This document shows positions 14,124 to 32,169 of a stretch of DNA of 32,169 nt, piece by piece. The position numbers and the translations under genes were made by a program. Source of the stretch: a virus; IMG/VR virus record IMGVR_UViG_3300045988_177309, positions 1-32,169 of that record. The stretch is one strand, 5' to 3'. The notes beneath the pieces are model-generated. The model was not told the DNA's origin and made no database searches. It saw only the letters and a program-made list of their open reading frames with translations. How positions within the stretch are numbered: the first letter of the stretch is position 1; the number at the start of each line of letters is the position of its first letter.

Positions 14124-14134
14124 ACACAAAGGTA

Positions 14135-14272: not shown

Positions 14273-14398
14273 CAAAGTAAAACTTTTTCGTAACATTTTG
14301 GACTTGTTAAAAAATTAACAATATTTGCCCAATTTTAGGATTGATAATATTTTAACAAAGTTGTCCAAAGTTTGTTAAAAATTTACCACAATAAACTC

Positions 14399-14438
14399 TT
14401 GACATAAGCTCGGTGCGTGTCAACCGCACACGCACCGC
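14399..14438 (+). repeat. copy 2 of repeated element: TTGACA-TAAGCTC-[hairpin ggtgcgtgt-caaccgc-acacgcacc]-GC
   Basis: See 12594-12634. Preceded by the shared block taggattgataat. Confidence 0.6.
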
Positions 14439-15340: not shown

Positions 15341-15651
15341 TGCCGCAAGCACAAGAGTTTCAGGATGTGATTTGAGTTAAATAAGCCGCGGCGGAAGAAA
15401 AGATTTTTCTCTGTTGGCCTATTTTGATTGAAATCAAGGCCGTTAACGATGACTAGGATTATTCTAAGTGGGGGCTGGGGTTGGAGGGTCGCGCGTTCCT
15501 CAGATAAAAAGTCCGTAAGGTTCATGAATGTTTATCTGGTAAAAACTAAAAGAACAAAAGGGGGGTAGTATTTCGGGAAAAAATTTTTTTTGATTTAATA
15601 AAAACGTTTTGCCTGGACAATCTTCTGTCCCCAAGTATTTTTATTTTCAAA

Positions 15652-15905: not shown

Positions 15906-15934
15906 TTGACATTGCGCTTTTTTCATGCTATAAT
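15906..15934 (+). promoter_or_regulatory. perfect consensus promoter TTGACA-17-TATAAT heading the recoded structural operon
   Basis: TTGACA 15906-11, TATAAT 15929-34. Leader has two hairpins, then RBS AAAGGAGG. Confidence 0.75.
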
Positions 15935-16000: not shown

Positions 16001-17075
16001 TTTGATAAAATTAGATTATTCTTTAGAAACTCCAGAAGAAAGAGTACAATTAGTAGAGCAAATTTTGGCTGAATAGCCTAATCCTCCTCAAAAATACATA
16101 GAAATTTTAACTGATTATCTAGTTATGTGCATGGAGCGTCAAGAACGCCGTGAGCGCAAAATATTAACTGAGAATCGTTTGGCGACAGTTAATAAACGTG
16201 AAACCTCTTTTGAAGGTCTTGTATCACAACTAGAAAGTGGCGAAGATGGAATCTATAATCTCATTCATGAAAATAAGAACCAAATATTTAAACCAAAAGT
16301 AAGAATAACAAAAAAAGACATTGAAGAAATACCCGAACTCCAACAAATAAGAGATTCCATTGAATTTTGGGAAAAAAAGGCAAAAACCGCACAAGGTCGC
16401 GAAGCATTTATTATACGAAAAACAATTATTGAATTGCGCAAAGATCAATACCTTGTGAAAGACTCTTTCCGATAGCCCATTCAAGCAAGTTCAACCGCGC
16501 ATTCACGTGGTATCTATAAACTTACTTATGATGATAAAACTTGCAATTTTGATGAAGAAGGATATCCAATTCCTTCTGGTCTCTCTCTTTTGGATCCAAA
16601 CATTTGTTCGACAATCTTATGTTTATATTCTAAATTAAAACAAGATGGTTATAGTGAATTCATTGGTGATTTATACTATCTTATGGAAGATTTTGATAAA
16701 ATTTCTATTATTGCGCTTGCGCCTTATCCTATTTATCAAAAATTAGTATTATATAAAATAGATGGCCGACAAAACGCTGAAATACAAAATTTATTACAAA
16801 CAGAATTTGGTATTACTCATAGTCTTGAATACCTTTCGAGTCTTTGGCGTAATAAAATTCCTAAATTAATAGCCAGTGCCGCAGAAGATCAATATCTTGA
16901 ATGGTATTACCTTAATGCTGAAAAAGGCAAATATAAAAGATGTAGCTGCTGTGGACAAATTAAATTAGCTCATAATAAATATTTTTCTAAAAATAAAACT
17001 AGCAAAGATGGTTATTACAGCATTTGTAAAAAATGTCGCAATGCTAAAAGTAAAAAAAGAAAAAGGAAGAAATAA
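16001..17075 (+). CDS. hypothetical protein with C-terminal Zn-ribbon (CSCCGQ...CKKC) and basic tail; 1 in-frame TAG
   Basis: Track ORFs 16125..16475 and 16590..17075 share a frame through the TAG at 16473. The frame stays open upstream to a TTG at about 16001, 11 nt after AAAGGAGG. The start is uncertain and may be 16125. Confidence 0.5.
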
Positions 17076-17078
17076 TTT

Positions 17079-18266
17079 ATGAGCGAGTTACATTATTGTA
17101 AAAAATGTAATCGAACCATGAATGGGGAACAATTTTATTCTTCTAACAATTTAGAAAAATACCCTGATAATGGTAAATTTGATATTTGCAAGAAATGTAT
17201 GACTATGCATGTAGATAATTGGGATCCAAACACTTACCTTTGGATCCTAGAAGAAGCTGACGTGCCTTATGTTCCCGATGAATGGAATAAATTGATGGCA
17301 AAGTATGCCAATAATCCAGAAAAATTAACTGGTATGACTATTCTAGGGCGTTATCTCTCTAAAATGAAACTTAAACAATTTAGAGATTATCGATGGAAAG
17401 ATACCGCTTTCTTGCAAGAATTGACACAAAGTAAAATTGAGCAAACAATGAAACGCTCCGGTTATGATGCTTAGCAAATTGCCGAAGCTATTAATAAGGT
17501 TACTTTTACTTTTGATGAACATTATGAATAGCCTCCAATTCCTGCTTCGAATGAATGTAGTGAATCTGAAGATTATTTTGACCAATAGAATGATATTTCT
17601 ATTCCAGAAGAAACGTTTGATTTAACCGACGAAGAAAAATTAATGTTGCGTCTTAAATGGGGAAAAACTTATAAACCAGAAGAATGGATTAAACTTGAAC
17701 AATTATATAATGAATTTCTTTAGTCTTATGATATTCAAAGCGCAGGACATATTGATACTCTTAAATTGATATGCAAAACCTCTCTTAAAGCCAATTAGTT
17801 AATCGATATTGGAGATGTAGAAGGTTTTCAAAAAATGAGCCGGGTGTATGATAATTTAATGAAGAGCGGTAAGTTTACTGCTGCTCAAAACAAAGCCGAA
17901 TCTGGGGAATATGTAAATTCAATTTCTGAACTTGTTACTTTATGTGAATAGCAAGGTTTTATTCCTCGTTATTATGTATCTACACCGCAAGATAAAGTTG
18001 ATGAAACTTTATAGGATACTAAAAATTATGTGCGGACTTTAGTTACCGAAGAAATGAACTTAGGTAATTTAATTGAATCTTCAATACGCACAATGAATTA
18101 TGAAGAAAATAAAGAAGAAGATGAAGATATCGAAGATGAAATAATGGAAGATGTAGTTCCTGAAATTACTGATGAAGACTTCATGGAGCAAGAGGAATTT
18201 CTTGAGTCTGAACAAGAGAAAGATGCGCGATTGACTGAAGAATTGGCCTTGGGCAAAAATAATTAA
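17079..18266 (+). CDS. hypothetical protein (N-terminal CxxC...CxxC, acidic C-terminus); 7 in-frame TAGs
   Basis: Track ORFs 17079..17474 and 18030..18266 share a frame. The frame stays open through TAGs at about 17473, 17528, 17585, 17720, 17798, 17949 and 18010, with no TAA or TGA. TAA at 18264-66. Confidence 0.6.
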
Positions 18267-18937
18267 TGGCATTACAAGAACTTTTAAATTTATAGTCTCG
18301 ATACAATAAATTAGGGCTTTCTGAAGAGCGCGTAACTGCAATTCTTCCAGTAGTGCGTGAATATGTAGCATTCTGGCGTGAATACCCAGATATGTTTATT
18401 GATTTCCTTTTGGAAGCGGGGAACCCTTAGAATTTTCATCTTTATTTTTATCAACGAGTATTTTTACGTGCGGCAATGCGGCATAAATATGTGTATGCAG
18501 TTTACCCGCGCGCCTATTCAAAATCGTTTCTTGCAATTATGATTTTAATGATACGTTGCATTCTCTATCCCAAGTGTAAACTTTTCGTTACTTCGGGTGG
18601 TAAAGAATAGGCGGCTGGTATCATAAAGGAAAAAGTACAAGAAATATGTAATCTTATTCCAGCAATGGATAAAGAAATAGATTATCGACCTGGTCAAACT
18701 AGATTTATTAAAGACCAAACTACAATAGTATTTAAAAATGGCTCTTATTTTGATAATATTGCAGCGCGTGAAACCTCTCGTGGTAAACGTCGTCATGGTG
18801 GAGTCATAGAAGAATGTGTTGGAGTCGATGGCGATATACTGTCCCAAGTTATTATTCCCACAATGAACATTTCACGTATGTGTATGGATGGAACAACATA
18901 GCCTGAAGAAACGCTCAATAAGTCCCAAATTTATGTT
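18266..18937 (+). CDS. terL: terminase large subunit, exon 1 (ATPase domain)
   Basis: ATG overlaps the upstream TAA (TAATG). ...AVYPRAYSKSFLAIM... (deviant Walker A) ...ETLNKSQIYV coupling motif. In-frame TAGs. The frame then degenerates and hits TAA at 19007, so the exon must end near 18937. Confidence 0.65.
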
Positions 18938-19530
18938 AATTTTTTGGTCATTTTACGTTACTTAAATGTATTAATTTTAAAGAGAAAAAAGCCCATTCTA
19001 CCATTATAAAATCTAAAAGAAAGCTTACGCAAGAACAAGTTTTTATGATTTATGTAAATAATGAATAGAATATTATTCCAAAAACATATCTTTGTAATAT
19101 GTTTAATATCACTAGTAATACAATTTATACTATTTTAAATCAAAAATCTTATCAAGATTATTGGCAAGATTATCAAAAATTAACGAATGATCAAAAAGAA
19201 CAATTAGCATCATTGTTGCGAAAGCAACAACAGCAAACCCCTTGAATTGCTGGGAAGCCCTAAAAAATAGGGTAATCAGCAGCCAAGCCTTGAATAAAGG
19301 AAGGTTCAACGACTATCTCAATATGAGAGTAGAGGCAAGCGTCTCGAAGTGGGGGGCCCTTAGCAGGTAAAGCTGAAGGTGAAGATATAGTCTTTTCTAT
19401 ATAGTAATATATAGCAGTTCATAAGAGAACGTATTTAATTTAGCGAATTAAATAGAAAAATAAAGAACAACTGCGGGATACAAAAACACATATGCTTATG
19501 ATAAACTTATTTAGTTGTTAGTTTGGTAGA
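18938..19530 (+). mobile_element. group I (IA-like) self-splicing intron interrupting terL; boundaries approximate
   Basis: P GAATTGCTGGGAAGC 19245-59. P5 hairpin ccct-aaaaaat-aggg. Q AATCAGCAGCC 19274-84. P6 ccttgaataaaagg. R GTTCAACGACTA 19304-15. P8 tctca-ata-tgaga. S AAGATATAGTC 19382-92 (GACUA:UAGUC P7). P9 ctatata-gtaa-tatatag. All in canonical order. Confidence 0.7.
19045..19245 (+). CDS. intron-internal ORF, HTH-like (possible degenerate homing-endonuclease DNA-binding module); contains 1 in-frame TAG
   Basis: Frame differs from both exons. MIYVNNE(Q)NIIPKTYLCNMFNITSNTIYTILNQKSY... resembles a NUMOD/HTH motif. TGA stop at 19243-45. Confidence 0.25.
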
Positions 19531-20525
19531 TCGTAAGACCAGAACGTTCAATTATTCTCGGAGGTACTTACCGCATCCCAGTTCTTATGAAGCTTCTGGA
19601 TAAAAGCTTTGTTCAAGACTTGCGTATGGATGGTACCTTTAATGAAAGTGCATTTTAGCGAGAATATGAGTCGAAATGGTCTGGCACAGTAGAGGATGCA
19701 TTCTTTAATCCAGAAGTTTTTGAACGTAATCGCATTCTTAATCAGCCAGAATATGAACTTTCTGGACGTGCATCAAAACAATCTTATTATGTGCTTTCTG
19801 TGGATGTTGGTCGCAAACAATGCGACACTGTTGTTTGCGTTTTTAATGTCATTCCATAGTAGCAAGGTACATCAATAAAAAAATTGGTTAACATATTTGT
19901 ATTAACTGATGAACATTTTGAAGATCAAGCAATAAGATTAAAGCAATTATATTATAAATTTAAAGCACGTCGTATTGTAATTGATGCGAATGGATTAGGT
20001 ATTGGACTTGTAGATTATATGATAAAAACTCAAGTTAACCCTGAAACAAATGAAACTTATTATGATTTTGGTGTTTATAATGATGAAGATAATTATTACA
20101 AAAAATATAGAACCATTTTCACAGAACAAGATGCAATGTATTTAATTAAAGCTAATGCGCCATTAAATACTGATGCTCATGCGAATGCACAATCTTAGCT
20201 ATCTTCTGGAAAAGTAAAATTTTTAATTGATGTTCAAACAGCCAAAGCGAAATTGCTTAATACAAAAGTTGGCCAAAATATGAGTCCTGAACAAAGGACA
20301 GATTATTTAAAACCATTTAATTACACTTCCATATTAAAAGAAGAAATGTTGAATCTTCGTGAAGAAAATGAAGGTATTAATATTAATTTAAAACAAATAA
20401 ATCGCGGAATACGAAAAGACAAATTTTCTGCGTTTGAATATGGGTTATATTATATTAAACATGAAGAAGATGACAAGAAAAAACGTAAAAGATTTAATGC
20501 AAAAGATTGGGCTTTTTTTAATTAA
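19530..20525 (+). CDS. terL: terminase large subunit, exon 2 (linker + RNaseH-like nuclease domain)
   Basis: ...FQREYESKWSGTVEDAFFNP... then ...YYVLSVDVGRKQCDTVVCVFN... and IVIDANGLGIGLVDYM. In-frame TAGs at about 19656, 19857-62 (double) and 20196. Track ORFs 19884.. and 20253..20525 share the frame. TAA at 20523-25. Confidence 0.7.
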
Positions 20526-20634
20526 AGGAGAAATAAAATATGAAAAGTTTTGCAGTAATAGCCAATAAAGCTATTAGAAGTTTTGATACGACTATATTAA
20601 ATTATACTGATATTGCTATGAGGTATTATCAACA

Positions 20635-20994
20635 GTGCGAGCTTCACGAGCGGAAATTAAAATTGAAGAAATCCTGCGTGACGCAGGTTTAAATTTTAAA
20701 ATGGAGTATATTTTTCCTGATTTAAAAAGTCCCAATGGACGTCCTTTGCGTTTTGATTTTGTTGTTTTTGATGATGATGGACGTATTGATTTTATTATTG
20801 AATATTAGGGTAAACAACATTACCAACCAAGTAGTAAATTTGGTGGTAAACGAGGTTTTTATCAACAACAATATAATGATAATCAAAAGCGTCGATTTTG
20901 CGCTTTGCATGATTTTAATTTAATAGAGATTCCGTATAATGAAGAAAATCTCATTTCTTATGATTATATTATGAATAAGGCCTACGGCTGGTGA
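20635..20994 (+). CDS. small endonuclease-like protein (restriction-endonuclease-fold/Vsr-like motif ...RFDFVVFDDDGRIDFIIEY-Q-GKQHY...LIEIPY); 1 in-frame TAG
   Basis: Frame opens after the TGA at 20608-10. Candidate starts are GTG 20635 or ATG 20701. TAG sits inside the conserved E-Y-x-G-x-Q-H block. TGA stop overlaps the portal RBS GAAGGAGGTG. Confidence 0.5.
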
Positions 20995-21008
20995 AGGAGG
21001 TGCGTAAT

Positions 21009-22616
21009 TTGGATAAATCCCGAACCTAGCAAATTCATGATAAAGGTTTTGCAATGGTTGATGGATACGCCTATTATCGCACAGACGCACCTAATGAATA
21101 TAAGAAAATTCGTATTGGAGTAAAATCTGTTGAAGACGCTGTGCTTCAACTAGGTTCTTATTGCCCTAATCCAAAAGATAAAGGTAATCATGGTCCTGCC
21201 ATTAATAAAGGCATGATTATTAAAGCTTTAATGGAACATGATGTTAAAGAATAGCGGAGAATTTCTAATCTTTTTTATGAAATAAATGGTATTTATCAAA
21301 AAGTATGTAATTATTTTGCTTATCTTTATCGTTATGATTGGTATGTAGATCCAAAAGTTTATGAAGATGCCAATGTTGAGAAAGTCTTAAAAAACTTTGC
21401 TAGTGTATTAGATTTTCTTGATAAATCTTATATTAAAAAAGTGTGTGGCGATATAGCTTTAGAAGTAGTTAAAAGTGGCGCCTATTATGGATATATTGTT
21501 AATATAAACAAAAGCTTAGTATTACAATAGCTGCCGACTGATTACTGCCGCTCCCGTTATAATGTTGGTTCAACTCCTGCAATAGAATTTGATATGAGAT
21601 ATTTTGATACGTTTAGAGATACTAATTATCGTATGCGTATCTTAAAGTTATTTCCTGATGAATTCTCAAAAGGATATTTACTTTATAAATAGGGTAAATT
21701 ACAACCTGACTTTGCTGGAGATAATTAGGGAAGTTGGTATTTACTTGAACCAGAAAATACTATAAAATTTAATTTATTGCATCATGATTTACCAATGTTT
21801 GTGAATGCAATTCCTGCGATTCTTGATTTGGATGCCGCCCAAGACTTAGACCGCAAGAAACAAATGCAGCAATTATTAAAAATTGTTGTACAAAAATTGC
21901 CACGAGACAAAAATGGTGATTTAATATTTGATGTTGAAGAAGCTAGAGATATACACAACAATGCAGTAGAAATGTTGCGTCGTGCTGTTGGAGTTGATGT
22001 TTTAACAACATTTACAGATGTTGATTCTATTGATATGTCTGATAAAAATACTTCAACCACTAAAGATGATTTAGAAAAAGTTGAACGCACTGTTTATAAT
22101 GCATTAGGTATTTCGCGCAATTTGTTTAATACGGATGGCAATTTATCTTTGGAAAAATCAATTCTTAATGATGAATCTTCTATGCGTAAATTATTGCTTC
22201 AATTTGAACAATTCTTTGATCGTATTATAAGTCAAAAATATAAAAATAGTAAATGTATTTTTAATTTTTGTATGTTAGAAACGACTCAATATAATTATAA
22301 AGAATTAGCAAAATTATATAAAGAACAATCTTAGATTGGTTTCTCAAAGATGTTACCTTAGATTGCTCTTGGACATTCTTAGAGTTTCATTTTGAATTCT
22401 GCCCACTTTGAGAATGATATATTAAAGTTATATGAAATTATGATTCCTCCGCTTATGAGTTCTACTATGAGTAGTGATTTAATTTTGGGTAACAAAGAGC
22501 AAAGTAATTAGACAAAAAATCAAACAAATTAGGATAGTAAAGAAATTGGTCGTCCAGAAAAATCTGATGACCAAAAGAGCGAAAAAACTATCTAGAATAA
22601 AGAATCTATGAGTTAA
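21009..22616 (+). CDS. portal protein (putative, about 535 aa); at least 10 in-frame TAGs
   Basis: Track ORFs 21054..21254 and 21777..22334 share a frame that stays open from TTG 21009 (5 nt after GGAGGTG) to TAA 22614-16. Synteny: terL, nuclease, this gene, scaffold. Size is typical of portals. Confidence 0.55.
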
Positions 22617-22628
22617 GGAGGAATATTA

Positions 22629-24167
22629 ATGCATAAGAGTATAGGCATTGAACAGTCCATCGAATTCATTAACGTGACTCCGCTCAATCCTTTAATTTCT
22701 AAATGTCAAATAAAAGTTTGTTATGTTCAAGATGAACCTAACCGCAATAAGAGTATAATTACTAAAGATGTTGCGCGAAAGCTCGCTAATTCATTGCCGG
22801 GTAGTCCCATTGTTGGTTATTATAATGAGGCCAGTGGTGATTTTGAAGAACATAATAAAATTATAGAAATTTCTAATGGTCAATTAACTTTTAAAGAAAA
22901 TACAAGGCCTTATGGCTTTGTTGATTTAGGTGCTAAAGTTTGGTTTTAGAAATTCCTTGATGATGATGTAATAGAACGTGAATATTTAGTAACAGAAGGA
23001 TATTTATGGACTGGCCAGTATCCTGAATGTCAACGTATTATTGATATCGGCAATAACCATTCAATGGAACTTGACAATACAATTTTAAAAGGACACTGGA
23101 CAAAAGATGATAAAGGAAAACCACAGTTTTTTATTATCAATGAAGCAATAATTTAGAATCTTTGTATTTTAGGCGAAGATGTAGAACCTTGCTTTGAAGG
23201 GGCTAGTATTACAGCTCCTATTCAATTCTCATTCGAGGATGGGTTTAAAGAGTAGCTCTTCTCAATGATGAATGAGTTAAAGAATATTTTGAATGAAGGA
23301 GGAGCGAAAGTATTGAATACTTATGCCGTTGATATTGGCGATAGTCTTTGGTCAGCCGTATGGGATTATGTTCATAAGACTTATAAAGATCCTGCTGATG
23401 AATGGTCTGCTTTGTATAACATCGATAGCATTTGCGAAGAAAATGGCCAAAAATTTGCAGTTCTGAGAAGTGCTGATGCCAAATACTATCGTTTAAATTT
23501 CTCTCTTTCTGAAACAGAGGGCTTCCAAGCTTCTGGCGCTTTAATTGAAGTAACTAAAAATTATACTCCTATTAATCAGTTTGCAGAAGCCGATGTTGCA
23601 GCTTATATGGAAGAATATAAGAAAAAGAATACTAAAGAGCCTTCTGAGGATGAAGAGAAGCCCATTGAGGATGAGAAAAAGTCAGAAGAAGAAGATAATT
23701 CTGATAATGAATCTCAATCTGATGATGAGGAAGATAAGAAGAAGAAGAAAACTTCTTATTCTATAGAAGAGTATAATACTGTTGTTGAACAGTTAAATAC
23801 TTTACAAGCTCAGTATAATGCCTTGCAGGAAACTAATAATGAGTTAACTGCGCAAGTTGAGTCTTTGACTCAGTTTAAGGTTGCGGCCGAGCGCAAGGAT
23901 AAACAGGCTATGATAAATAGCTTTTATATGCTGTCCGATGATGATAAGAAAGATGTTGTTGATCATATTGATTCTTATTCTTTGGATGATATTGAAGCAA
24001 AACTTTCTATAATATGTTTCCGTAATAAGGTAAGTTTTGACCTTGATGAGGAAAAGAAAACAGATGAGAATGGGCCTATTACTTATAATTTAGACCATGA
24101 TGAAGTTGATAATACTCCTGCTTGGTTAAAGGCTGCATTTGCTGTTGCAAAATCTAGAGAAGAATAA
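22629..24167 (+). CDS. scaffolding-like protein (globular N-domain, acidic E/D/K low-complexity linker, coiled-coil C-terminus); 3 in-frame TAGs
   Basis: Track ORFs 22629..22949 and 23265..24167 share a frame through TAGs at about 22947, 23154 and 23253. RBS GGAGGAATATTAATG. Confidence 0.5.
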
Positions 24168-24188
24168 TAGTTTTAAGGAGGATAAACA

Positions 24189-24953
24189 ATGCTGGGTGAG
24201 TTTTTAAAGAAACACATTACTAGCCAGGCAGATTCCGCCAAGGGCGGCTATGTCGATTATGGTTATGGCCAAGTAGAACCTAACCATCTTTCAGCTTAGA
24301 GGACTGGACAGATGTATGGTCAGCTGCCTGCTAATAAAGATATTAAGATTTTAGAAAATGGTCAGTTTGTAAAATATGATTATGCTGCCGCCAATGGCGG
24401 TGAGGTAAATTTCGTTGGTAAGGGCGAATGGATGCTTGTTTATAATGAGATTAAGCTTTATCGTGAACATCAGGTTGACGCTGAGTTCGCTATGCTGAAA
24501 GATAATTATGAAGCTCGTGTTTATAGTCCTTATGATTGGGAAAAGCCTGAAGAGGATAAGCAGACTCGTTACTATAATGGTGTAGATAATAACGGCGATT
24601 CTAGCATCGAGCTTGGTGGTAAGACTTATAATTATGATGATGTAACTGCTGGCCCTGATTATTATGAAATTCATTATAATGAAGATCCCTTCCACATTCT
24701 TGGTAAGCATTATGAGCGCAAGATGCCCGAAGGTACTAAGATGGTTCCTCGCGTATTTAAGACTAATGTGGGTGATATCTTTACCACTAACATGATTGCC
24801 GAAACTACTCTTGCTCTTGGCGATGAGCTTTCTCCTCGTGCAACTGATGGTATTCTCAGCAAGTCTGGCGATGGCTCTATGAAATGGCAAGTAGTGCGTC
24901 TGTATACTATGCCCGATGGCCAAAAGGGCGTTAAATTAATGCGCATAGCGTAA
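24189..24953 (+). CDS. hypothetical head-associated protein (254 aa); 1 in-frame TAG
   Basis: ATG 24189 after AGGAGGATAAACA. Same frame as track ORF 24312..24953 through the TAG at about 24297. Confidence 0.5.
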
Positions 24954-24970
24954 GAAAGGAGAAAAATATA

Positions 24971-26080
24971 ATGGCTTTAGATCGTAATAATCTTGTTGCA
25001 TTAATGAAGACTGTAGCTAAGGCTAAGCCTGCTTCTCCTATTGCTTATAGCTGGGATGGCAAGAATTTAGACTATGATACACTTAATGAAACACTCCGTA
25101 TGGAGATGAATGAACTTGCAGGTTCTTATTCTCTCTATCGTGAAAATAAAAATCTGATTTTCTCCATTATTGAAGAGACTCTTGATGATGTTCTCCCCAA
25201 GAAGGTTGAAGAGCAGTATAATCAGTTCGCTGAAGTTAAGACTTTTAAGCAGGGTGATAAGCCCATTTTCCGCAGGAAGCTCAATACTCGTCAGCGTGCT
25301 AAGCAGTTTGTAACTCGTGTTGGCCATGCTAGCATGTATGAAGTTTTTAAACTTGGTGCGGCTGAAGAGGCTTTTGAAGTGCGTACTAGCGCGATTGGCG
25401 GCGCTGCTCAGATTGGTTTTGAAGAGTTCCTTGATGGTCGTGTTGATTTCGCTGAAGTTACTGCTATCATTATGGAAGGTATGGATGAACTCATTTATAA
25501 GGAGATTGGTGCTGCTCTGAAGGCTTCTATCAATCAGCTTCCTCCTGCAAACCGTGTTGCGGCCGCTGGTTTTGATGAAGCTTCTTTTGATCGCCTTCTG
25601 ACTGTTGCTTCTGCTTATGGCGAACCTACTATCTATTGTACTTATGAATTTGCTGTCAATATGATTCCTCAGGAGGCTTGGCGTTATACTGAGTCTATGA
25701 AGGATGAACTTTGGCGCACCGGTCGTCTGGCTAGCTATAAGGGCAAGAAGGTCATTATTCTTGAACAGGGTTTTGAGGATGGTACCAATGAAAAGAAGGT
25801 TATTGATCCTGGTTATGCTTGGATTATTCCTACTGGTGCTGATGGTAAACCTGTGAAGGTTGCTTTTGAAGGCAATACTATTGTTGATGAGTATAATAAC
25901 TATGACCGCTCTCGTGAAATTCAGGTTTATAAGAAGGTTGGCGTAGTATGCATGATGGCCAATAATATTTGCGCTTATGTTGATACTGCCCTTCTGGGTC
26001 AAATGGATACATGGCATCTTGATGGTGCTTCCAATGTTGCTTGGCAGTCTAATGTTGTTATTGGTAACGACAATCCGTAA
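24971..26080 (+). CDS. major capsid protein (putative; 369 aa), no in-frame TAG
   Basis: Intact track ORF with RBS AAAGGAGAAAAATATAATG. Position after the scaffold-like gene. GC3-rich, highly biased codon usage. Confidence 0.5.
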   Translation: MALDRNNLVALMKTVAKAKPASPIAYSWDGKNLDYDTLNETLRMEMNELAGSYSLYRENKNLIFSIIEETLDDVLPKKVEEQYNQFAEVKTFKQGDKPIFRRKLNTRQRAKQFVTRVGHASMYEVFKLGAAEEAFEVRTSAIGGAAQIGFEEFLDGRVDFAEVTAIIMEGMDELIYKEIGAALKASINQLPPANRVAAAGFDEASFDRLLTVASAYGEPTIYCTYEFAVNMIPQEAWRYTESMKDELWRTGRLASYKGKKVIILEQGFEDGTNEKKVIDPGYAWIIPTGADGKPVKVAFEGNTIVDEYNNYDRSREIQVYKKVGVVCMMANNICAYVDTALLGQMDTWHLDGASNVAWQSNVVIGNDNP

Positions 26081-26162
26081 TTTTTAATATAAGGGGAGAA
26101 AAAAGGATACTTTCGTATCCCTTTTCTCCCATTTTTTGCTATGAGAAAAAGGAGATAATAAA

Positions 26163-26759
26163 ATGGTTGGTAATAAAAATTTTAATGTAAAAAATCGTAG
26201 TGCTAGTGTAGTAGTTTATAAAATTCCAGAAGAAAATATTCGTAGAGAATTTGCGCCCGGTGAAAGTAAGAAGATTTCTTATGCAGAATTAGAAAAGCTT
26301 ACTTATCAGCCTGGCGGTCGTGAATTAATGGCAAATTTTTTGCAAATTGATAGTGATGAAGCAATCAATAGCTTAAATATTTATGCGACTCCTGAATATT
26401 GGATGTCAGAAAAGAATATTATAGATTTGATTAAAACTGGCCCTCTTGATCAGTGGCTCGATGCCCTCGATTATGCTCCTGTTGGCGCAATGGATTTAAT
26501 TAAGAAATATTCTGTGTCTTTGCCTTTGACTGATACTCGTAAGATAGAGGCTTTGCAGAAAAAGACTGGCTTTAATGTTACTGCTGCTATTCAACATGAT
26601 AAAGAATCTAAGGAACCTGACGAAGTATTTACAAAGACTGAAAAGAAGGAAAATACTGAAACCGCTCATACAGCACCTACTGGACGTCGTACTACTGTTG
26701 ATTATAAGAAGAGCAACGAAGAAGCTCCTACTACTCCAGTTTATAAAGTAGTAAAGTAA
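26163..26759 (+). CDS. hypothetical structural protein (198 aa), no in-frame TAG
   Basis: Intact track ORF. RBS AAAAGGAGATAATAAAATG. Confidence 0.5.
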   Translation: MVGNKNFNVKNRSASVVVYKIPEENIRREFAPGESKKISYAELEKLTYQPGGRELMANFLQIDSDEAINSLNIYATPEYWMSEKNIIDLIKTGPLDQWLDALDYAPVGAMDLIKKYSVSLPLTDTRKIEALQKKTGFNVTAAIQHDKESKEPDEVFTKTEKKENTETAHTAPTGRRTTVDYKKSNEEAPTTPVYKVVK

Positions 26760-26786
26760 TAAATAAATAGGAGGCGAGTTTACACT

Positions 26787-27374
26787 GTGGATGGAATAAC
26801 TGAATTTTCCAAAGTATATAATCGCTTTCTTGGTAAAATTACTGATGATATGTATATTGAATTGACTCCAGAAGATACATTAAAAGATTTGCAGAATCTT
26901 TTAATTGAATCATTGCCAGGGTTTGAGTTTCCTAGGCATGATATTTCTTCCTATGTCATAAAGACTGAAACAATTCCAGAAGATATGATAACTTCTGATG
27001 ATTTTGTTGTAGGTATTTTATGGGGTAAGATACCTTCTGGGCCAAATGATGTTCCTGATGTAATTATTGATAAATCTTATTTTTTAGAATCTTTAACAGA
27101 AGAAGAAATTAATATTATAGCCATTTTAATGATGTGCGCTTGGGTAAATAGATAGGTAGCATCTATTGAAAATACTAGAATGAAATATTCAGGTACGGAT
27201 TTTAAATTTACTTCCCAAGCTAATCATTTATCAAAGATGTTAGCGCTGTTATCAGAAACATAGCGCCAATCAATTCATATGCAAAGACTTTATGGTCGTC
27301 GCAAAAAAAATGCGCGAGGTGCTTATGAATCTAATTGGTCTATATTACGAGAAAAGAGCGCATTAGATAGATAA
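26787..27374 (+). CDS. head-tail adaptor/connector-like protein; 2 in-frame TAGs
   Basis: Track ORF 26787..27155 (GTG start after TAGGAGG) continues in frame through TAGs at about 27153 and 27261 to TAA 27372-74. Confidence 0.4.
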
Positions 27375-27676
27375 TGATGACTAAATATGGTTTTACTGTT
27401 GTCGAAGATGTTATTAATAAAGATTTATTACGTTTAACTAATTAGATTTGGAAATTAATTCCTATGCGCGAACATGAGGAAGATTGGTTAAAACAATTAA
27501 ATACGATAATTGTAGAAATCTCTGGCTTAAATGAAATATTTGCGCCAGAGCTTTCTTTTACTATCTTATTAAGTAAATTAGAAGGTTTAAAAATTGAAGA
27601 ACATTTAGATTTTTATACTTATCGAAAAACTGTTTTTGAAGCTATAAATTTATTATAGGAGTTAAAACATGCATAA
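27374..27676 (+). CDS. hypothetical small structural protein; 2 in-frame TAGs
   Basis: ATG overlaps the upstream TAA (TAATG). Same frame as track ORF 27464..27658. Confidence 0.45.
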
Positions 27677-28697
27677 TGCACAAGTAAATTCATTGATGCG
27701 CGGCCGCCTTGGCTTATATTCTCAATAGCCTGGACAAGATGCCGGTGTTGAAACTCGTGACCAATAGTTTATATAGCGCGGAGGATATCATCAGCAAGAA
27801 AGAATGATTAAAGACAAGCGCCGCAGTTTGGATAAAGCCACTCTTTATTCTTACTAGGCTGCTGATGTGCGGGATATTAACGCAAAAATATTAAATACAT
27901 ATCGTGCGTTAATTAATCCTAATAAATTAAAACAAGATTATGATGATAAGATTGTTTCTGTTGGATTTGAAGCCAGGTTTTAGCCAGGTACTGTTTTTGA
28001 ATGGGTTGGCACTCATACTTATTGGTTAATTTATTTACAAGATTTAACTGAGCTGGCGTATTTTCGTGGTGATATTCGTAAGTGTTCTTATGAAATTGCT
28101 TGGAAAGATGATGATGGTGAACATAAAACTCATGCGGCAATTCGTGGCCCAGTAGAGACAAAAATTAATTTTATTCAAAAGCATGGAATTAGTGTCGATG
28201 AGCCTAATTATTCTTTGAATATATTAATGCCTAAAAATGAAGAAACTTTGAAATATTTTACCAGATATTCTAAATTTTATTTGCATAATGATCCGGTGCA
28301 AGAAAATAAAATTTGTTGGCGAGTTGAAGCTGTAGATTGGATTAGTATGCCGGGCGTTTTAGAAATAAATGCAGTAGAATATTATAGTAACAAAGTTGAA
28401 GATGATATAGAAAATGGTATTGTGGGTGGGCTAGTAGTTGAAGAAAAAAATCCCAATACTGAAGAAGTAGAGGATGCTATTACTGGTGAAACATTTATTA
28501 AGCCTAAGAAGAGATATAGATATCAATTTACTGGTTCTATGATTTCTGATTGGAAAATAAAAACTGATTTGCCATTACAATGCTGGGAAATTGATGAGCA
28601 TTGTATTGAATTAATGTGGCTAAAACCTGTTAGTGGATAGTTTACATTAAGTTATGGTGATTTTGAGAAAGTAATAGTGGTTGAGTCCCTATTTTAA
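27669..28697 (+). CDS. hypothetical structural protein (about 342 aa); 6 in-frame TAGs
   Basis: ATG 27669. Frame shared with track ORF 28215..28640. Open to TAA 28695-97. Confidence 0.5.
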
Positions 28698-28721
28698 TGA
28701 GATAAAGGAGAAAAAAGTGTT

Positions 28722-29330
28722 ATGAAAGTTGTAAGCTATATTGAGCCAAAGTCTTCTTTTTTATCATTAGAGAAAGATTTGGCTATTATTGTAGATAAAA
28801 TTTTGGCTGATACTCGATTAAAAAAATTGTTATATTATCCCTCAAAAGATGCTTTGACTAAGCCGGCTTTAACTGAGGATTAGAGTATTGCATTATTTGG
28901 TAAGCAAATAAAAATAGTGCCAAAGCTTTATATTGATTCTGAGGTTTTTGCTTATTTAATTATTTCTTTTGATAACTTTTTAACAAATATGACAAATCCG
29001 CAATTTAGAGATAATGTATTAGAGGTAGATGTTATTTGTCATTTTGATCAATGGCAATTAACAGATTTTAAATTGCGGCCCTATAAAATTGCAGCGGAAA
29101 TTGATTCTATGTTAAATAATCAAAGATTGACTGGAATTGGATTAACTGAATTTTTGGGTTGCAATCAAATAGTACTTAATGATGAATATGCAGGATTATG
29201 TTTAATGTATCGTGTTGTACATGGTGAAGAAGATAAAAAGAATATGTTAACGCCGCAAGATGAGAAAGTATTCTTAAACGATTATTTTAGTATGGATACT
29301 GTTGGATCTGATGATGAAGATGGAGATTAA
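28722..29330 (+). CDS. hypothetical protein (about 202 aa); 1 in-frame TAG
   Basis: RBS AAAGGAGAAAAAAGTGTTATG. Frame shared with track ORF 28917..29330. Confidence 0.5.
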
Positions 29331-29332
29331 TT

Positions 29333-30058
29333 ATGGATTTACGGCTAGCCTTAATGTCTGGTATAGATATTGCGGTGCCTGAATGCCCTTTAATTATTCA
29401 CTAGCCGAAAATTAGGGAGATAGCTTATTTAGGTGAAACGCCTTTTTTTACTGGTGTTCAAACTCTTTGTTTAGATAAGCGCATGTTTGCTGAAAATCAA
29501 GAAGAATTAGCTATGGTTAATAATTTTTAGATTGTCATGACACTTTTAAATAGTCCGGAAGGACAAGATAAAAAAATACATGTGAAACAATTATTAAATA
29601 TGATATGTCCGAGTTATAAAATTAGCTTTACTCCTCGGTCAATTTTTTTTAATAAAGAAGATACAAATATCATATTAGATGAGGGTAATTTTGATTCCTT
29701 TCAAGAAATTTTACGTCAAATTTTTTGTGTTAATTCCGGGGCGATGGGTGAAACTGCTTTCAATCCCGCAGATGCTAAAGCAAGAGAAATTGCAGAAAAG
29801 CTCATGCGAGGGCGGCAACGAGTTGCAGCGGAGAAGGGAGAGGGTGCGGGCAGCATCTTTGCCCAATACGCATCCATCCTAACAGTAGGGCTTAACTCAA
29901 TGTCTTTACATGATGTTTTAGATTTAACTATGTTTTAGATGTATGATTTAATTGAAAGACTCTCTCTGTATACTAATTGGGACCTTGACGTTCGAACTAG
30001 ATTAGCGGGAGGTAAGCCGGATCAACAACCCGATAATTGGATGAAAAATATTCATTAA
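29333..30058 (+). CDS. hypothetical protein (about 241 aa); 3 in-frame TAGs
   Basis: ATG 29333. Frame shared with track ORF 29537..29938. TAA at 30056-58. Its 3' end contains the RBS of the next gene. Confidence 0.5.
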
Positions 30059-30081
30059 ATATTAAGGAGGAACAAAACACT

Positions 30082-31080
30082 ATGAAGTTTGGTGTCCGCG
30101 AGATTTGTGACGTCGTGTTAAAGGCGAAAGCACCTCAAAAAGTGGGTAATAAAATATTCTATAAAAATGAACCTGTTATTTATTTTGATACATTAAAGAC
30201 TTCTAGTATGGAAGGCGCTGCAACCACAGTTTACGCGCAAGGTGGACGAGGCAATACTCGTCTCGTAGCGTGGGAAGGCGAACGCACTGTAACCTTCACC
30301 ATGGAGGATGCTCTGATTTCCCCTGCGGGATTCATGATTCTTTCTGGTGCCGGTCTTATTGAAGCTGGTAAGGGCGCTCCTATTTATGTTCATACAACTG
30401 AGCAAACTGACCAGGTTATAGTAGGTGCCGATAATGTTACTATTTACTTGAAAGAAAAGCCCTATTTTGCTGATAATAATGAGGATATGGTTTATGTTAT
30501 GCTTATGGATGGCGATGAAGTTGCCACTGAGCCTTATATTCCTGCTAAGCCCGAAGGTTACAGCAATAAGGAAGCTGATAATACTTATGTGAAAGTTACT
30601 GAAGAAGTTGAAGGTATAACCTATGCTGGTTATAAGATTACTCTGCCCATTACTCGTACTGCTGAGGGTGCTGAGCGTGATGATCTCACTCCTTTCAAGG
30701 CTGGTTGCGTTGTATTAGTAGACTATTACGTAGCTAAGGAAAGTGGCGCGCAGCAGATTGAAATTACTGCCGATAAATTTGGCGGTAACTACTACCTTGA
30801 AGCTTCTACTCTGTTCCGTGATCGCAATGGTGTAGATATGCCTGCGGAATTTATTATTCCTAACTGCAAGATTCAGTCTAATTTTACTTTCACAATGGCG
30901 TCTTCTGGCGATCCTTCTACTTTCACCTTTACCATGGATGCATTCCCTGATTATACTCGTTTCGACAAGACTAAGAAAGTCCTCGCCGCAATTCAGATTA
31001 TTGAAACTGCGGGTGCTTCTGATATCGAACGTCTTAAGACTGATCATATCAAGGCTCATGAGGAGTATTTCATAGATTAA
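30082..31080 (+). CDS. major tail (tube/sheath-like) protein, putative (332 aa), no in-frame TAG
   Basis: ATG 30082 preceded by TAAGGAGG. The track's extension to 30037 has no RBS. Followed by a small ORF and a strong terminator. Confidence 0.45.
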   Translation: MKFGVREICDVVLKAKAPQKVGNKIFYKNEPVIYFDTLKTSSMEGAATTVYAQGGRGNTRLVAWEGERTVTFTMEDALISPAGFMILSGAGLIEAGKGAPIYVHTTEQTDQVIVGADNVTIYLKEKPYFADNNEDMVYVMLMDGDEVATEPYIPAKPEGYSNKEADNTYVKVTEEVEGITYAGYKITLPITRTAEGAERDDLTPFKAGCVVLVDYYVAKESGAQQIEITADKFGGNYYLEASTLFRDRNGVDMPAEFIIPNCKIQSNFTFTMASSGDPSTFTFTMDAFPDYTRFDKTKKVLAAIQIIETAGASDIERLKTDHIKAHEEYFID

Positions 31081-31248
31081 TGATTATACACTCTCGCAAA
31101 AAAGCAAGTGTGGGAAATGCTACTAAGGTGGTAGAACCAAAAGTAGAAAAGATTGATATTGAGGAAGAAAAGCCTATTAAGATAACAAAGAAAAAACCTA
31201 AGAAGGTTTTTGAAGAATTAGATTTTGAGCTTGATTCTCAAGAGTAAA
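31081..31248 (+). CDS. small lysine-rich protein (55 aa)
   Basis: ATG overlaps the upstream TAA. ORF MIIHSRKKASVGNATKVVEPKVEKIDIEEEKPIKITKKKPKKVFEELDFELDSQE. Confidence 0.35.
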
Positions 31249-31249
31249 A

Positions 31250-31286
31250 ATGGGGGAAGAGAAATCTTCCCCCATTATTTTTTTAT
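31250..31286 (+). terminator. strong intrinsic terminator (ggggaaga-gaaat-cttcccc + T10)
   Basis: Read from the sequence. Confidence 0.75.
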
Positions 31287-31297
31287 AAGAAAGGAAG

Positions 31298-32169
31298 ATG
31301 GACGTGGGAATAGGTTCAACATTTGCGAGAAATATAACTACCTTAAAAGGGTGGCCTTAGCCTTTTTGGGGTAGATATGAAGAATTAAATAATGTAGTGA
31401 CTCCTAGTATTTCAGCCATTTAGGCTTATCAATTACAAAAAATTAAATAGTTTGAAGAGATTTCGGCCTCAAGAATGGAGAAATATGCTAGAATAAATAA
31501 ATTATTTTCTTCTGGAAATGTTAATAAATTATAGTCTGAACATGCTGAAAATGAAAATAATACTATAGATTAGGCTATAACAAATATAATAAAAGCAATA
31601 AATGGAACTTATCAAGCTAGGGAAAGAATAGACAAAAACCAATATGAATATAATTATTAGAAGTTGTAGAATAAGCTCGAAAATTTAAAAGATGCTATTA
31701 ACTCAGTGAAAGAAATATTAGAATCTGGAAAATAGTCATAGACAATAAATGAATATTTTTTAGACCAAGTGAATAAGGCTATTAAGAACTGTGGAGTGGA
31801 AGGCTCAAATCCATCGCAATGGTTTGCACAGATAAATCAATTTAAAGGTGATATTGTGGAAGAAATAGGTTTAAAATGGTTAAATAGTTTTGGGGTTTCA
31901 AATATAAAAACTTTAAATGTTGGCTCATTAAGCTATCAAGGCTCTTCCAATAAAGGACGTCATAAAGGTTAGTTAATATAGGATTTAATGATTTTATAGG
32001 TAGATGATTTTGATTTAGACACGATACCAATTGAATATAAATTTAACAAAGAGAAAAAAATAGTCACTTTAAGAGAATTTATTGAAAAAATTGAGACAAT
32101 GACAGGTAAATCTGAAGAGATTTCCATTACAGATGAAACATATGATATTTTAGAAAGTTTATCTATTAT
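31298..32169 (+). CDS. large structural protein, tape-measure-like (helical, Q/K/N-rich); about 14 in-frame TAGs; continues beyond window end
   Basis: ATG 31298 after AAAGGAAG. 290 codons open to the window end with no TAA or TGA, but TAG about every 20 codons. Confidence 0.4.

What the first reader, a model, noticed from the sequence alone, without database searches (positions are those of the whole stretch)
16001..32169. Stop-codon recoding: TAG is a sense codon (probably Gln) throughout the plus-strand structural/packaging operon
Every break between adjacent plus-strand ORFs in the supplied track is an in-frame TAG. Joining them gives full-length phage proteins: terminase domains, a 535-aa portal-sized protein and a 342-aa protein. 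TAA and TGA never occur inside these joined frames, and every gene ends in TAA or TGA. One TAG sits inside a conserved endonuclease block (IEY-TAG-GKQHY), where Q or D is the usual residue. This is the code-15-type reassignment known from some crAss-like and Lak-type phages. Standard-code gene callers would shred this region into pseudogene-like fragments.
Basis: partly seen in the sequence, partly recalled or inferred. Interest (0 to 1): 0.9.

Follow-up and report, generated by a model that had tools for sequence, protein, structure and literature searches.

The report
TAG-to-glutamine recoded phage late operon

Summary
With TAG read as sense, window 16.0-32.2 kb becomes one packed plus-strand operon. 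It has 60 in-frame TAG codons and no in-frame TAA or TGA, and all 15 complete genes end in TAA or TGA. Coding coverage rises from 0.58 under table 11 to 0.88 under table 15; TGA-as-sense gives no real gain.

In 52 related contigs the window's TAG columns behave like glutamine columns. In seven standard-code relatives 49% are Gln, against 54% for true Gln columns. Fourteen of 15 conserved TAG columns are Gln. Against the closest relatives, 33 of 36 TAG differences are TAG<->CAA/CAG.

Eighteen leftward genes contain no TAG, either in frame or as a stop. A tRNA(CUA) gene sits at a conserved site in all 11 relative contigs examined. It was not reached in this phage's own genome.

Corrections:
- The two terminase halves are joined by a 529-nt group I intron, not a TAG.
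- The portal is 520 aa.
- The "endonuclease" is a conserved 119-aa gene, not a mobile element.

The closest described group is the code-15 phAss-1/SPbeta-like phages (Babkin 2023). This is a new member of a known kind.

The parts
15906..15934 (+). Perfect extended sigma-70-type promoter (TTGACA, 17 nt, TG-n-TATAAT) upstream of the first late gene
   Evidence: 12 of 12 matches, TG extension; sequence. Function is inferred only.
16002..17075 (+). First gene of the rightward operon, 357 aa, TTG start after RBS AAAGGAGG. PHROG 5767 'sigma factor'-like with a C-terminal zinc-ribbon. In-frame TAG at 16074 and 16473.
   Evidence: relatives start MIKLDYSL at this position
17079..18266 (+). YonG_N-like protein, 395 aa, 7 in-frame TAG
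   Evidence: phrog_3314 spans residues 6-334; Pfam YonG_N on the homologue
18266..18936 (+). Terminase large subunit (YonF-like), exon 1, 4 in-frame TAG
18937..19465 (+). Group I intron, 529 nt. It follows U18936 and ends in G19465. The catalytic core is at 19192-19414. It contains a 66-aa HTH-like ORF at 19045-19245 with its own in-frame TAG at 19066.
   Evidence: Rfam RF00028, 92.7 bits against a gathering score of 50. The insertion is absent at exactly this point in L002, L003 and about 30 other relatives. It is polymorphic among contigs that share the identical tube protein.
19466..20525 (+). Terminase large subunit, exon 2, 6 in-frame TAG. The spliced protein is 576 aa.
   Evidence: Gene calls of 576 aa exist in the intron-less contigs L203 and L057.
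20635..20994 (+). Conserved 119-aa nuclease-like protein with a GTG start. Motif IEY-TAG-GKQHY with TAG at 20806; ends in TGA.
   Evidence: Present between TerL and portal in all 52 relatives; the column is CAA in 39 and TAG in 13.
21054..22616 (+). Portal protein, 520 aa, 10 in-frame TAG
   Evidence: phrog_2739, E=5.5e-83, spanning residues 61-518 across the TAGs
22629..24167 (+). YonD_N-like protein, 512 aa, 3 in-frame TAG
24189..24953 (+). 254-aa virion-module protein, 1 in-frame TAG (24297; Gln in 51 of 52 relatives)
24971..26080 (+). Major capsid protein (YonB family), 369 aa, no TAG; 11 of its 12 Gln codons are CAG
26163..26759 (+). 198-aa protein, no TAG
26850..27374 (+). 174-aa protein, 2 in-frame TAG
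27374..27676 (+). 100-aa protein, 2 in-frame TAG
27669..28697 (+).
28722..29330 (+). YomW-like virion protein, 202 aa, 1 in-frame TAG
29333..30058 (+). YomV-like protein, 241 aa, 3 in-frame TAG. All three columns are Gln in at least 94% of the non-TAG relatives (24/24, 17/18, 26/26).
30082..31080 (+). Tail tube protein (YomU_Tube), 332 aa, no TAG
31298..32169 (+). TAG-rich gene cut by the window end (432 aa in the full contig); 12 in-frame TAG in 290 codons
4436..5113 (+).
   Evidence: (called as a 225-aa gene in the source contig)
5647..6396 (+).
263..15525 (-). 18 leftward genes (2,486 codons, 82 Gln codons) with no in-frame TAG and no TAG stop (11 TAA, 7 TGA). They read the same under either code.

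Best explanation
The window comes from a roughly 162-kb SPbeta-like siphovirus of gut Bacillota whose rightward packaging and virion operon is written in a TAG=glutamine code (NCBI table 15).

Shown:
- TAG is the only stop-type codon inside the frames of these genes.
- Its columns in relatives are glutamine columns.
- It interchanges with CAA/CAG between near-identical genomes.
- It is never used as a terminator in the window.
- The leftward genes avoid it completely.

Inferred, from relatives and from the published model for recoded phages:
- The leftward genes, which read the same under either code, are translated by the unmodified host machinery.
- They are co-oriented with a phage tRNA with anticodon CUA. 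That tRNA is charged with Gln by a host enzyme and competes with release factor 1 at UAG.
- Only then can the TAG-containing late proteins be completed: the sigma-like regulator, terminase, portal, and head and tail accessory proteins.
- The most abundant virion proteins (capsid, tube) are kept almost free of TAG, presumably because suppression is limiting.

Separately, the terminase mRNA must also be spliced, because a group I intron interrupts it at 18937-19465.
For: - Frames: 60 in-frame TAG against 0 in-frame TAA/TGA, with 908 TAA/TGA off-frame. All 15 complete late genes stop at TAA or TGA.
- Coding density is 0.584 under table 11 and 0.883 under table 15, all on the plus strand; table 4 gives 0.613.
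- Family profiles span the TAGs: portal phrog_2739 covers residues 61-518 at E=5.5e-83.
- In 52 IMG/VR relatives the non-TAG residues at window TAG columns are Gln in 815 of 1,903 cells; the next is Lys with 146. The log-likelihood is -4513 for Gln and -6545 for the runner-up His.
- In 7 standard-code representatives, 49.2% of cells at TAG columns are Gln, against 53.8% at true Gln columns. Fourteen of the 15 conserved TAG columns are Gln.
- In the closest relatives (96% aa identity) all 47 aligned TAG columns are TAG or CAA/CAG, and 33 of 36 TAG differences are TAG<->CAA/CAG.
- The 18 leftward genes have 0 TAG among 82 Gln-type codons (P about 2.5e-11 at the late-gene share) and 0 TAG stops.
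- A tRNA(CUA) lies just downstream of a DUF2828 gene in all 11 lineage contigs examined.
- The nearest named phage, phAss-1, is filed under 'Caudoviricetes code 15 clade' and has three tRNA-Sup-CTA genes.
- Public gene calls on the source contig already give the joined lengths of 520, 512 and 342 aa.
Against: - No tRNA gene lies in the window, and the suppressor was not reached in this phage's own genome. It was seen only in relatives, including one with 96% aa identity in the late genes.
- The isotype of that tRNA could not be assigned from sequence. It resembles neither the phage tRNA-Gln nor the phAss-1 suppressors.
- No GlnRS or release-factor gene was seen in the roughly 50 kb of this genome inspected.
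- There is no peptide-level evidence.
- The early/late timing of the two gene sets is assumed from orientation and gene content, not measured.
Confidence: 0.93

Rival explanations
1. TAG is read through only partially. It remains mainly a stop or attenuator that sets the dose of each late protein, rather than being fully reassigned as a sense codon.
For: The abundant virion genes avoid TAG. Its share of Gln-type codons is 2.4% in the capsid gene and 3.0% in the tube gene, against 23-57% in the other late genes of 35 recoded relatives. The window's capsid, tube and 198-aa genes have none. This is what one would expect if suppression is inefficient or limiting.
Against: Essential single-copy-function proteins carry many TAGs: 10 in the portal, 10 in the terminase, and 12 in 290 codons of the last gene. 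With partial read-through the yield would fall geometrically with each TAG. TAG is also never used as a terminator in 33 genes, which argues that it no longer works as a reliable stop.
Confidence: 0.1
2. TAG encodes an amino acid other than glutamine, for example Lys, Glu, Ser or pyrrolysine. ARAGORN labels the tRNA 'Pyl'.
For: The isotype of the lineage's tRNA(CUA) cannot be read from its sequence. One conserved TAG column (17949) is Lys in 38 of 43 relatives.
Against: The likelihood ranking puts Gln about 2,000 log units ahead of any other residue. Fourteen of 15 conserved columns are Gln. TAG<->CAA/CAG accounts for 33 of 36 differences with the closest relatives. The 'Pyl' label is only ARAGORN's name for the CUA anticodon.
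Confidence: 0.03
3. The region is a decaying, pseudogenised prophage or an assembly artefact, and the TAGs are nonsense mutations.
For: Under table 11 the genes look shattered.
Against: - Random decay would also produce TAA, TGA and frameshifts, and none occurs in about 5,000 codons.
- The same TAG positions are shared with relatives: 402 cells in total, and 37-41 of 47 columns in L002/L003.
- Identical proteins occur in many independent assemblies: 24 contigs were read for the tube protein and 3 large contigs carry the capsid protein.
Confidence: 0.01
4. The host itself reads TAG as sense, so the phage simply mirrors its host's code and no switch is involved.
For: TAG is absent as a stop from every gene in the window, including the leftward ones.
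Against: - The leftward genes also avoid TAG as a sense codon (0 of 82 Gln-type codons). A host-wide code would not impose that.
- The lineage carries its own tRNA(CUA).
- Seventeen of 52 close relatives use the standard code.
- No bacterium with TAG=Gln is known (my own knowledge).
Confidence: 0.02

Closest known systems
phAss-1 / proposed Phassvirus and the surrounding SPbeta-like gut phage group (Babkin et al. 2023, PMC10607447; NCBI 'Caudoviricetes code 15 clade')
   Same: A large (130-160 kb) siphovirus of gut Bacillota. TAG is recoded to Gln in the terminase, portal, tail and other virion genes. Suppressor tRNA(CUA) genes are present in the lineage and no dedicated aminoacyl-tRNA synthetase has been seen. 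Recoded and standard-code genomes are mixed within the wider group. The structural module is homologous (capsid 49.7% aa identity).
   Different: Not the same genus: no megablast match to any GenBank phage apart from 76 nt of the intron core. The late proteins are about 42% identical over the part compared. The genome is about 162 kb rather than 136 kb. The lineage's tRNA(CUA) is unrelated in sequence to the three phAss-1 suppressors and sits at a different locus, after a DUF2828 gene rather than after NrdD or in the tRNA array.
Code-15 crAss-like and Lak phages, and the gut-phage recoding model of Borges et al. (bioRxiv 10.1101/2021.08.26.457843); metaproteomic proof in crAss-like phages (Peters et al. 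2022, PMC9523058)
   Same: TAG=Gln. The recoding is concentrated in structural and late genes, alongside genes that read the same under either code, and it relies on a phage-borne suppressor tRNA. The genetic code is inconsistent within a clade.
   Different: A different phage lineage and host phylum (SPbeta-like phages of Bacillota, not Crassvirales or Lak phages of Bacteroidota). There is no experimental validation here. In this lineage the tube and capsid genes avoid TAG, whereas Borges et al. report the crAss tail tube as preferentially recoded.
Bacillus phage SPbeta and relatives (Enterococcus phage EF1, Lactococcus phage 949, Brevibacillus phage Sundance)
   Same: Same virion and packaging gene set and order: YonG, YonF (TerL), portal, YonD, YonB (capsid), YomW, YomV, YomU (tube). 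The EF1 terminase is also interrupted, with an HNH homing endonuclease under the match.
   Different: These cultured phages use the standard code (Babkin 2023 states this for EF1).
Group I introns in phage genes (Rfam RF00028)
   Same: The catalytic core matches at 92.7 bits. The intron sits in a conserved essential gene, follows a U and ends in G, and carries a small internal ORF. Its presence varies among near-identical genomes.
   Different: The internal ORF is only 66 aa with an HTH-like segment and no recognisable nuclease domain. It itself contains a recoded TAG.

Membership tests
Phage with TAG-to-Gln recoding (translation table 15 type) | In-frame TAG, and only TAG, inside conserved protein-coding genes | tested here: met
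   60 in-frame TAG and 0 in-frame TAA/TGA in about 5,000 codons, against 908 TAA/TGA off-frame. Family profiles span the TAGs.
Phage with TAG-to-Gln recoding (translation table 15 type) | TAG positions align with glutamine in homologues that use the standard code | tested here: met
   49.2% Gln at TAG columns against 53.8% at true Gln columns in 7 standard-code relatives. Fourteen of 15 conserved columns are Gln. The Gln likelihood is far ahead of any other residue.
Phage with TAG-to-Gln recoding (translation table 15 type) | TAG is not used as a terminator; genes end in TAA or TGA | tested here: met
   The 15 complete late genes end in TAA (14) or TGA (1). The 18 leftward genes end in TAA (11) or TGA (7).
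Phage with TAG-to-Gln recoding (translation table 15 type) | Table 15 restores coding density and gene length; other reassignments do not | tested here: met
   Coverage 0.584 rises to 0.883 and median length from 133 to 336 aa. TGA-sense gives 0.613. TAA-sense gains fall on the wrong strand and are at the level of shuffled controls.
Phage with TAG-to-Gln recoding (translation table 15 type) | Genome encodes a suppressor tRNA with anticodon CUA | tested here: inconclusive
   None in the window or within about 10 kb on either side in the source contig. Present at a conserved locus in all 11 contigs of the lineage that were examined, including a relative with 96% aa identity in the late genes. 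The rest of this phage's own genome could not be read.
Phage with TAG-to-Gln recoding (translation table 15 type) | Gln is inserted at UAG in the proteins (peptide evidence) | not testable with these tools
   Needs proteomics; this has been done only for crAss-like phages (PMC9523058).
Phage with TAG-to-Gln recoding (translation table 15 type) | A set of genes that read the same under either code sits beside the recoded late genes | tested here: met
   0 TAG among 82 Gln-type codons of the leftward genes, against a 25.8% TAG share in the late genes; P about 2.5e-11.
Proposed genus Phassvirus (phAss-1, BK046881, BK025033) | Genus-level nucleotide similarity to phAss-1 (members are 80-86% identical to one another) | tested here: not met
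   There is no megablast match of the 16-kb late region to phAss-1. The capsid is 49.7% identical in protein. This is a relative within the wider group, not a member of the genus.
SPbeta-like siphoviruses | SPbeta-type virion and packaging gene families in conserved order | tested here: met
   Pfam YonG_N, YonD_N, YonB, YomW, YomV_2nd, YomU_Tube and YomO hit the gene products of the source and related contigs. TerL matches yonF of SPBc2 and the terminases of 145 Bacillota phage records.
Group I intron | Match to the catalytic core model above the curated threshold | tested here: met
   RF00028, 92.7 bits against a gathering score of 50, full model length, E=8e-23.
Group I intron | Precise insertion in a host gene whose removal restores the conserved reading frame; U before the 5' splice site and G as the last intron base | tested here: met
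   Removing 18937-19465 gives ...SQIYV|TTAGYK..., which is colinear with the uninterrupted TerL of L002, L003 and about 30 other relatives. The result is a 576-aa protein, equal to the gene calls in intron-less contigs. Position 18936 is T and 19465 is G.
Group I intron | Self-splicing activity | not testable with these tools
   Needs in vitro transcription and splicing, or RT-PCR.
   The 119-aa gene is present at the same place, between TerL and portal, in all 52 relatives at 64-97% identity. PHROG hits carry 'homing endonuclease' and 'HNH endonuclease' labels. Pfam gives only a sub-threshold DUF2726 match.

The most novel reading that the evidence does not exclude
In this SPbeta-like family the code switch may be evolutionarily labile and wired as a translational timer.
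- Standard-code and TAG-recoded genomes interleave on a crude tree, implying several gains or losses among 52 relatives.
- The lineage's tRNA(CUA) is unrelated to those of phAss-1, which hints at independent acquisition.
- The first gene of the late operon is a sigma-factor-like protein. It sits behind a perfect host-type sigma-70 promoter and carries two TAGs, so it could be completed only after the suppressor accumulates.
- The capsid and tube genes are kept TAG-free to escape limited suppressor capacity.
Probability: 0.25. Interest if true: 0.55.

Novelty: new member of a known kind. Interest (0 to 1): 0.3.

Why it matters
In practice, standard-code annotation would break this operon into roughly three times as many pseudogene-like fragments and would miss the terminase, the portal and most tail genes. 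The phage belongs to a large, mostly unannotated family: 52 relatives in IMG/VR and dozens of ENA and Logan contigs.

Biologically it adds a well-documented Bacillota-phage example to the TAG=Gln phenomenon. It also comes with a useful natural comparison set, because about one third of its relatives at roughly 56-68% protein identity use the standard code.

It does not change what is known about how recoding works.

Tried and rejected
- **NrdD as an anchor.** phAss-1's suppressors lie next to NrdD, so I used its NrdD to find the locus. Only near-identical Phassvirus contigs came back.
- **Anticodon-arm search.** The exact 17-mer of the lineage's tRNA(CUA) anticodon arm found only 2 contigs. 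The planned test, whether recoded relatives have the suppressor and standard-code relatives lack it, could therefore not be done.
- **Reaching the suppressor locus in this phage's own genome.** I tried exact-protein look-ups of DUF2828 variants. The contigs returned were relatives, not the source contig.
- **Identifying TerL.** Pfam, NCBIfam and PDB sequence or profile searches gave nothing. Identity was settled by tblastn to annotated terminases.
- **Theta ribozyme.** Rfam found no ribozyme next to the tRNA(CUA), only a chance sRNA match. Rfam may not hold a theta-ribozyme model, so this is not evidence of absence.
- **tRNA isotype.** Crude alignment of the suppressor to other phage tRNAs gave no isotype.
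- **Rejected readings.** TGA or TAA reassignment; pseudogenes; a homing-endonuclease reading of the 119-aa gene.

Full report
**1. What is in the sequence**

The window is AT-rich (29-43% GC). Under the standard code its plus strand from 16 kb onward is a string of short ORFs. I re-derived open frames with only TAA and TGA as stops. The same stretch then becomes a tightly packed plus-strand operon whose genes abut or overlap by a few bases:

| Coordinates | Product | Length |
|---|---|---|
| 16002-17075 | sigma-factor-like (PHROG 5767) | 357 aa |
| 17079-18266 | YonG_N-like | 395 aa |
| 18266-20525 | terminase large subunit, in two exons | 576 aa spliced |
| 20635-20994 | nuclease-like | 119 aa |
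| 21054-22616 | portal | 520 aa |
| 22629-24167 | YonD_N-like | 512 aa |
| 24189-24953 | virion-module protein | 254 aa |
| 24971-26080 | major capsid (YonB) | 369 aa |
| 26163-26759 | unnamed | 198 aa |
| 26850-27374 | unnamed | 174 aa |
| 27374-27676 | unnamed | 100 aa |
| 27669-28697 | unnamed | 342 aa |
| 28722-29330 | YomW-like | 202 aa |
| 29333-30058 | YomV-like | 241 aa |
| 30082-31080 | tail tube (YomU) | 332 aa |
| 31298 to window end | TAG-rich gene, cut off | 290 codons here |

These frames hold 60 in-frame TAG codons: 59 counted, plus 16074 once the TTG start of the first gene was fixed. They hold no in-frame TAA or TGA. The two off-frames of the same genes hold 463 TAA and 445 TGA. 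All 15 complete genes end in TAA (14) or TGA (1).

**2. Is it more than chance, and is TAG the right codon?**

I ran a simple greedy ORF caller on 16001-32169.

| Code | Coverage | Notes |
|---|---|---|
| Table 11 | 0.584 | median ORF 133 aa |
| TAG as sense | 0.883 | median ORF 336 aa; all 16 genes on the plus strand |
| TGA as sense | 0.613 | no real gain |
| TAA as sense | 0.791 | 19 of 25 ORFs on the wrong strand; shuffled sequence gives 0.52 |

The TAA-sense gain is the usual artefact of AT-rich DNA. Family profiles also run straight across the TAGs: the portal profile phrog_2739 covers residues 61-518 at E=5.5e-83.

**3. Which amino acid?**

A capsid-protein search of IMG/VR returned 52 related contigs with 10 kb on each side. 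I translated them with TAG masked and aligned the window's late proteins to them.

- At the window's TAG columns the relatives have TAG in 402 cells, Gln codons in 815, Lys in 146 and Ser in 138. Gaps account for only 17 of 2,320 cells.
- I scored the TAG-column residues against the substitution spectrum observed for each of the 20 window residues. Gln scores -4513 and the runner-up His -6545.
- Seventeen relatives have no in-frame TAG at all, so they use the standard code. In seven representatives of these, 49.2% of cells at window TAG columns are Gln. At the window's own CAA/CAG columns the figure is 53.8%. TAG columns are therefore indistinguishable from glutamine columns.
- Of the 15 TAG columns where one residue dominates (at least 80%), 14 are Gln and one is Lys.
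- In the two closest relatives (96% aa identity) every one of the 47 aligned window TAG columns is TAG or CAA/CAG. Counting both directions, 33 of 36 TAG differences are TAG<->CAA/CAG.

**4. How the codon is distributed**

The 18 leftward (minus-strand) genes between 263 and 15525 contain 82 Gln codons, no in-frame TAG and no TAG stop (11 TAA, 7 TGA). TAG makes up 25.8% of Gln-type codons in the late genes, so the chance of this is about 2.5e-11. These genes read identically under tables 11 and 15.

Two plus-strand ORFs inside that region also carry TAGs: 4436-5113 (4 TAG) and 5647-6396 (2 TAG). They are called as 225-aa and 249-aa genes in the source contig. They match no known family.

Within the late operon the capsid, tube and 198-aa genes have no TAG. 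The same holds across 35 recoded relatives:

| Gene | TAG share of Gln-type codons |
|---|---|
| Capsid | 2.4% |
| Tube | 3.0% |
| 254-aa gene | 2.7% |
| 198-aa gene | 7.6% |
| Other late genes | 23-57% |

In the relatives those four genes use relatively more CAG (50-72% of CAA+CAG, against 12-37% in the other late genes). The capsid and tube regions of the window also have higher GC.

**5. The decoding machinery**

No tRNA gene lies in the window. Exact-protein look-ups show that the window comes from contigs of about 162.5 kb in ENA (ERZ28661244 scaffold_29 and ERZ27260911 k119_163740). The 10 kb beyond the left end holds tRNA-Lys and tRNA-Met only.

I then walked along the closest IMG/VR relative, IMGVR_UViG_3300045988_175607. 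It carries a dispersed set of tRNA genes and one tRNA with anticodon CUA (L194 16743-16817). This tRNA lies just downstream of a DUF2828 gene and on the same strand as the leftward genes. The same tRNA(CUA) is at the same place in all ten further ENA, Logan and IMG/VR contigs of the lineage that I could reach.

Its isotype cannot be read from sequence with the tools at hand. It is unrelated to the three suppressors of phAss-1. The presence of a suppressor in this phage's own genome is therefore inferred, not shown. I saw no release-factor or aminoacyl-tRNA-synthetase domains in the roughly 50 kb of this genome with Pfam-annotated gene calls.

**6. The one break that is not a TAG**

The two "terminase domains" lie in different frames, 530 nt apart. 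Rfam places a group I intron core at 19192-19414 (92.7 bits against a gathering score of 50).

Removing 18937-19465 joins ...SQIYV to TTAGYK.... The base before the intron is U and the last intron base is G. This junction is exactly colinear with the uninterrupted terminase of the two closest relatives and about 30 others. The spliced protein is 576 aa, equal to the gene call in intron-less contigs.

Contigs that carry the identical tube protein differ in whether they have the intron: their gene calls are 576 aa or 312 aa. The intron is therefore polymorphic among near-identical phages. Other relatives carry insertions of 667-3,082 nt at other terminase sites.

The intron holds a 66-aa HTH-like ORF with its own in-frame TAG.

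Pfam, NCBIfam and PDB searches did not identify the terminase. It was identified by tblastn to annotated terminases, to YonF of SPbeta, and to 145 Bacillota phage records.

**7. Comparison with what is known**

The nearest named phage is phAss-1 (OQ749652), with 49.7% capsid identity. NCBI files it under "Caudoviricetes code 15 clade". Babkin et al. 2023 (PMC10607447) describe TAG=Gln in 41 of its ORFs, three tRNA-Sup-CTA genes, no dedicated synthetase, and a wider monophyletic group in which only some genomes are recoded.

The general model is that of Borges et al. (bioRxiv 10.1101/2021.08.26.457843). Genes that read the same under either code come first. A phage suppressor tRNA is then made, and only after that the recoded structural and lysis genes are translated. 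Peptide proof exists for crAss-like phages (PMC9523058).

The window's phage is not a Phassvirus, since there is no nucleotide-level match. It is an SPbeta-like relative that shows the same phenomenon. The public gene calls on its contig already use the joined frames. The finding is therefore a new member of a known kind.

**8. Side observations**

- A crude neighbour-joining tree of six late proteins interleaves standard-code and recoded lineages. This suggests several code switches in the family, but the tree has no support values.
- The 13.5-16.0 kb region has few genes and many promoter-like sites (26 found against 10.3 expected). One is a perfect extended sigma-70 consensus at 15906-15934, just upstream of the sigma-like first late gene, which itself carries two TAGs. 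This invites the idea of a suppressor-gated regulator, which is untested.

**9. Verdict**

The interpretation (TAG=Gln, code-15 type) is supported with confidence of about 0.93. Novelty is low and interest is about 0.3.

Noticed in passing
window 18937-19465 (core 19192-19414; ORF 19045-19245): A group I intron splits the terminase large-subunit gene. It is absent from the closest relatives and from some contigs that share identical neighbouring proteins. Its small HTH-like ORF contains a recoded TAG (19066). Other relatives have insertions of 667-3,082 nt at other TerL positions, and the Enterococcus phage EF1 TerL is also interrupted.
   Followed up: yes
window 24971-26080, 30082-31080, 26163-26759, 24189-24953; L002-L053: The abundant virion genes (capsid, tube and two neighbours) almost never use TAG: 2-8% of Gln-type codons, against 23-57% in the other late genes of 35 recoded relatives. 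In the relatives they use relatively more CAG than the other late genes, and the capsid and tube regions of the window have higher GC.
   Followed up: partly
L002-L053 (relatives of window 15-36 kb): Seventeen of 52 relatives, at 56-68% protein identity to the window, have no in-frame TAG, while 35 have 28-67. On a crude NJ tree the two kinds interleave, which suggests repeated gain or loss of recoding within one family.
   Followed up: partly
window 15906-16004: A perfect extended sigma-70 promoter (TTGACA, 17 nt, TG-n-TATAAT) is followed by a 5' hairpin and the RBS AAAGGAGG. These lie ahead of the TTG start (16002) of a sigma-factor-like gene that carries two TAGs. It may be a host-transcribed regulator whose translation waits for the suppressor.
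   Followed up: partly
window 13510-16000: A gene-poor region rich in promoter-like sites (26 against 10.3 expected) between the leftward and rightward gene sets. It has three 12-of-12 consensus promoters, and repeated TTGTTAAAAAATTAACAA-type palindromes at 14260-14390 that look like operator sites.
   Followed up: no
window 20635-20994, with overlapping small ORF 20540-20692: The 'endonuclease' is a 119-aa GTG-initiated gene conserved between TerL and portal in all 52 relatives, so it is a resident gene and not a mobile homing endonuclease. A 50-aa ORF with a strong RBS overlaps its 5' end in another frame.
   Followed up: partly
L194 16743-16817 (also L195, L197-L201, L204-L208): The lineage's tRNA(CUA) has a U1-C72 mismatch, G73 and no encoded CCA, and is followed by a possible hairpin-forming stretch. 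It is unrelated to the three phAss-1 suppressors. Whether a theta (HDV-like) ribozyme follows it, as reported for many phage suppressor tRNAs (PMC10879173), was not resolved.
   Followed up: partly
L184 10001-19511 and L054 18955-20735 (left of the window in the genome): There are pairs of large radical-SAM/SPASM-like genes (420, 465, 448 and 493 aa), together with a peptidase M28 gene and scattered tRNA genes. This is an unusual auxiliary module for a phage.
   Followed up: no
window 4436-5113 and 5647-6396: Two plus-strand ORFs with 4 and 2 in-frame TAGs lie among the TAG-free leftward genes and match no known family. A related contig (L203) instead carries a 400-aa PcfJ-like gene in the part that maps (approximately) onto window 5647-6396, so this stretch appears to be variable.
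   Followed up: partly
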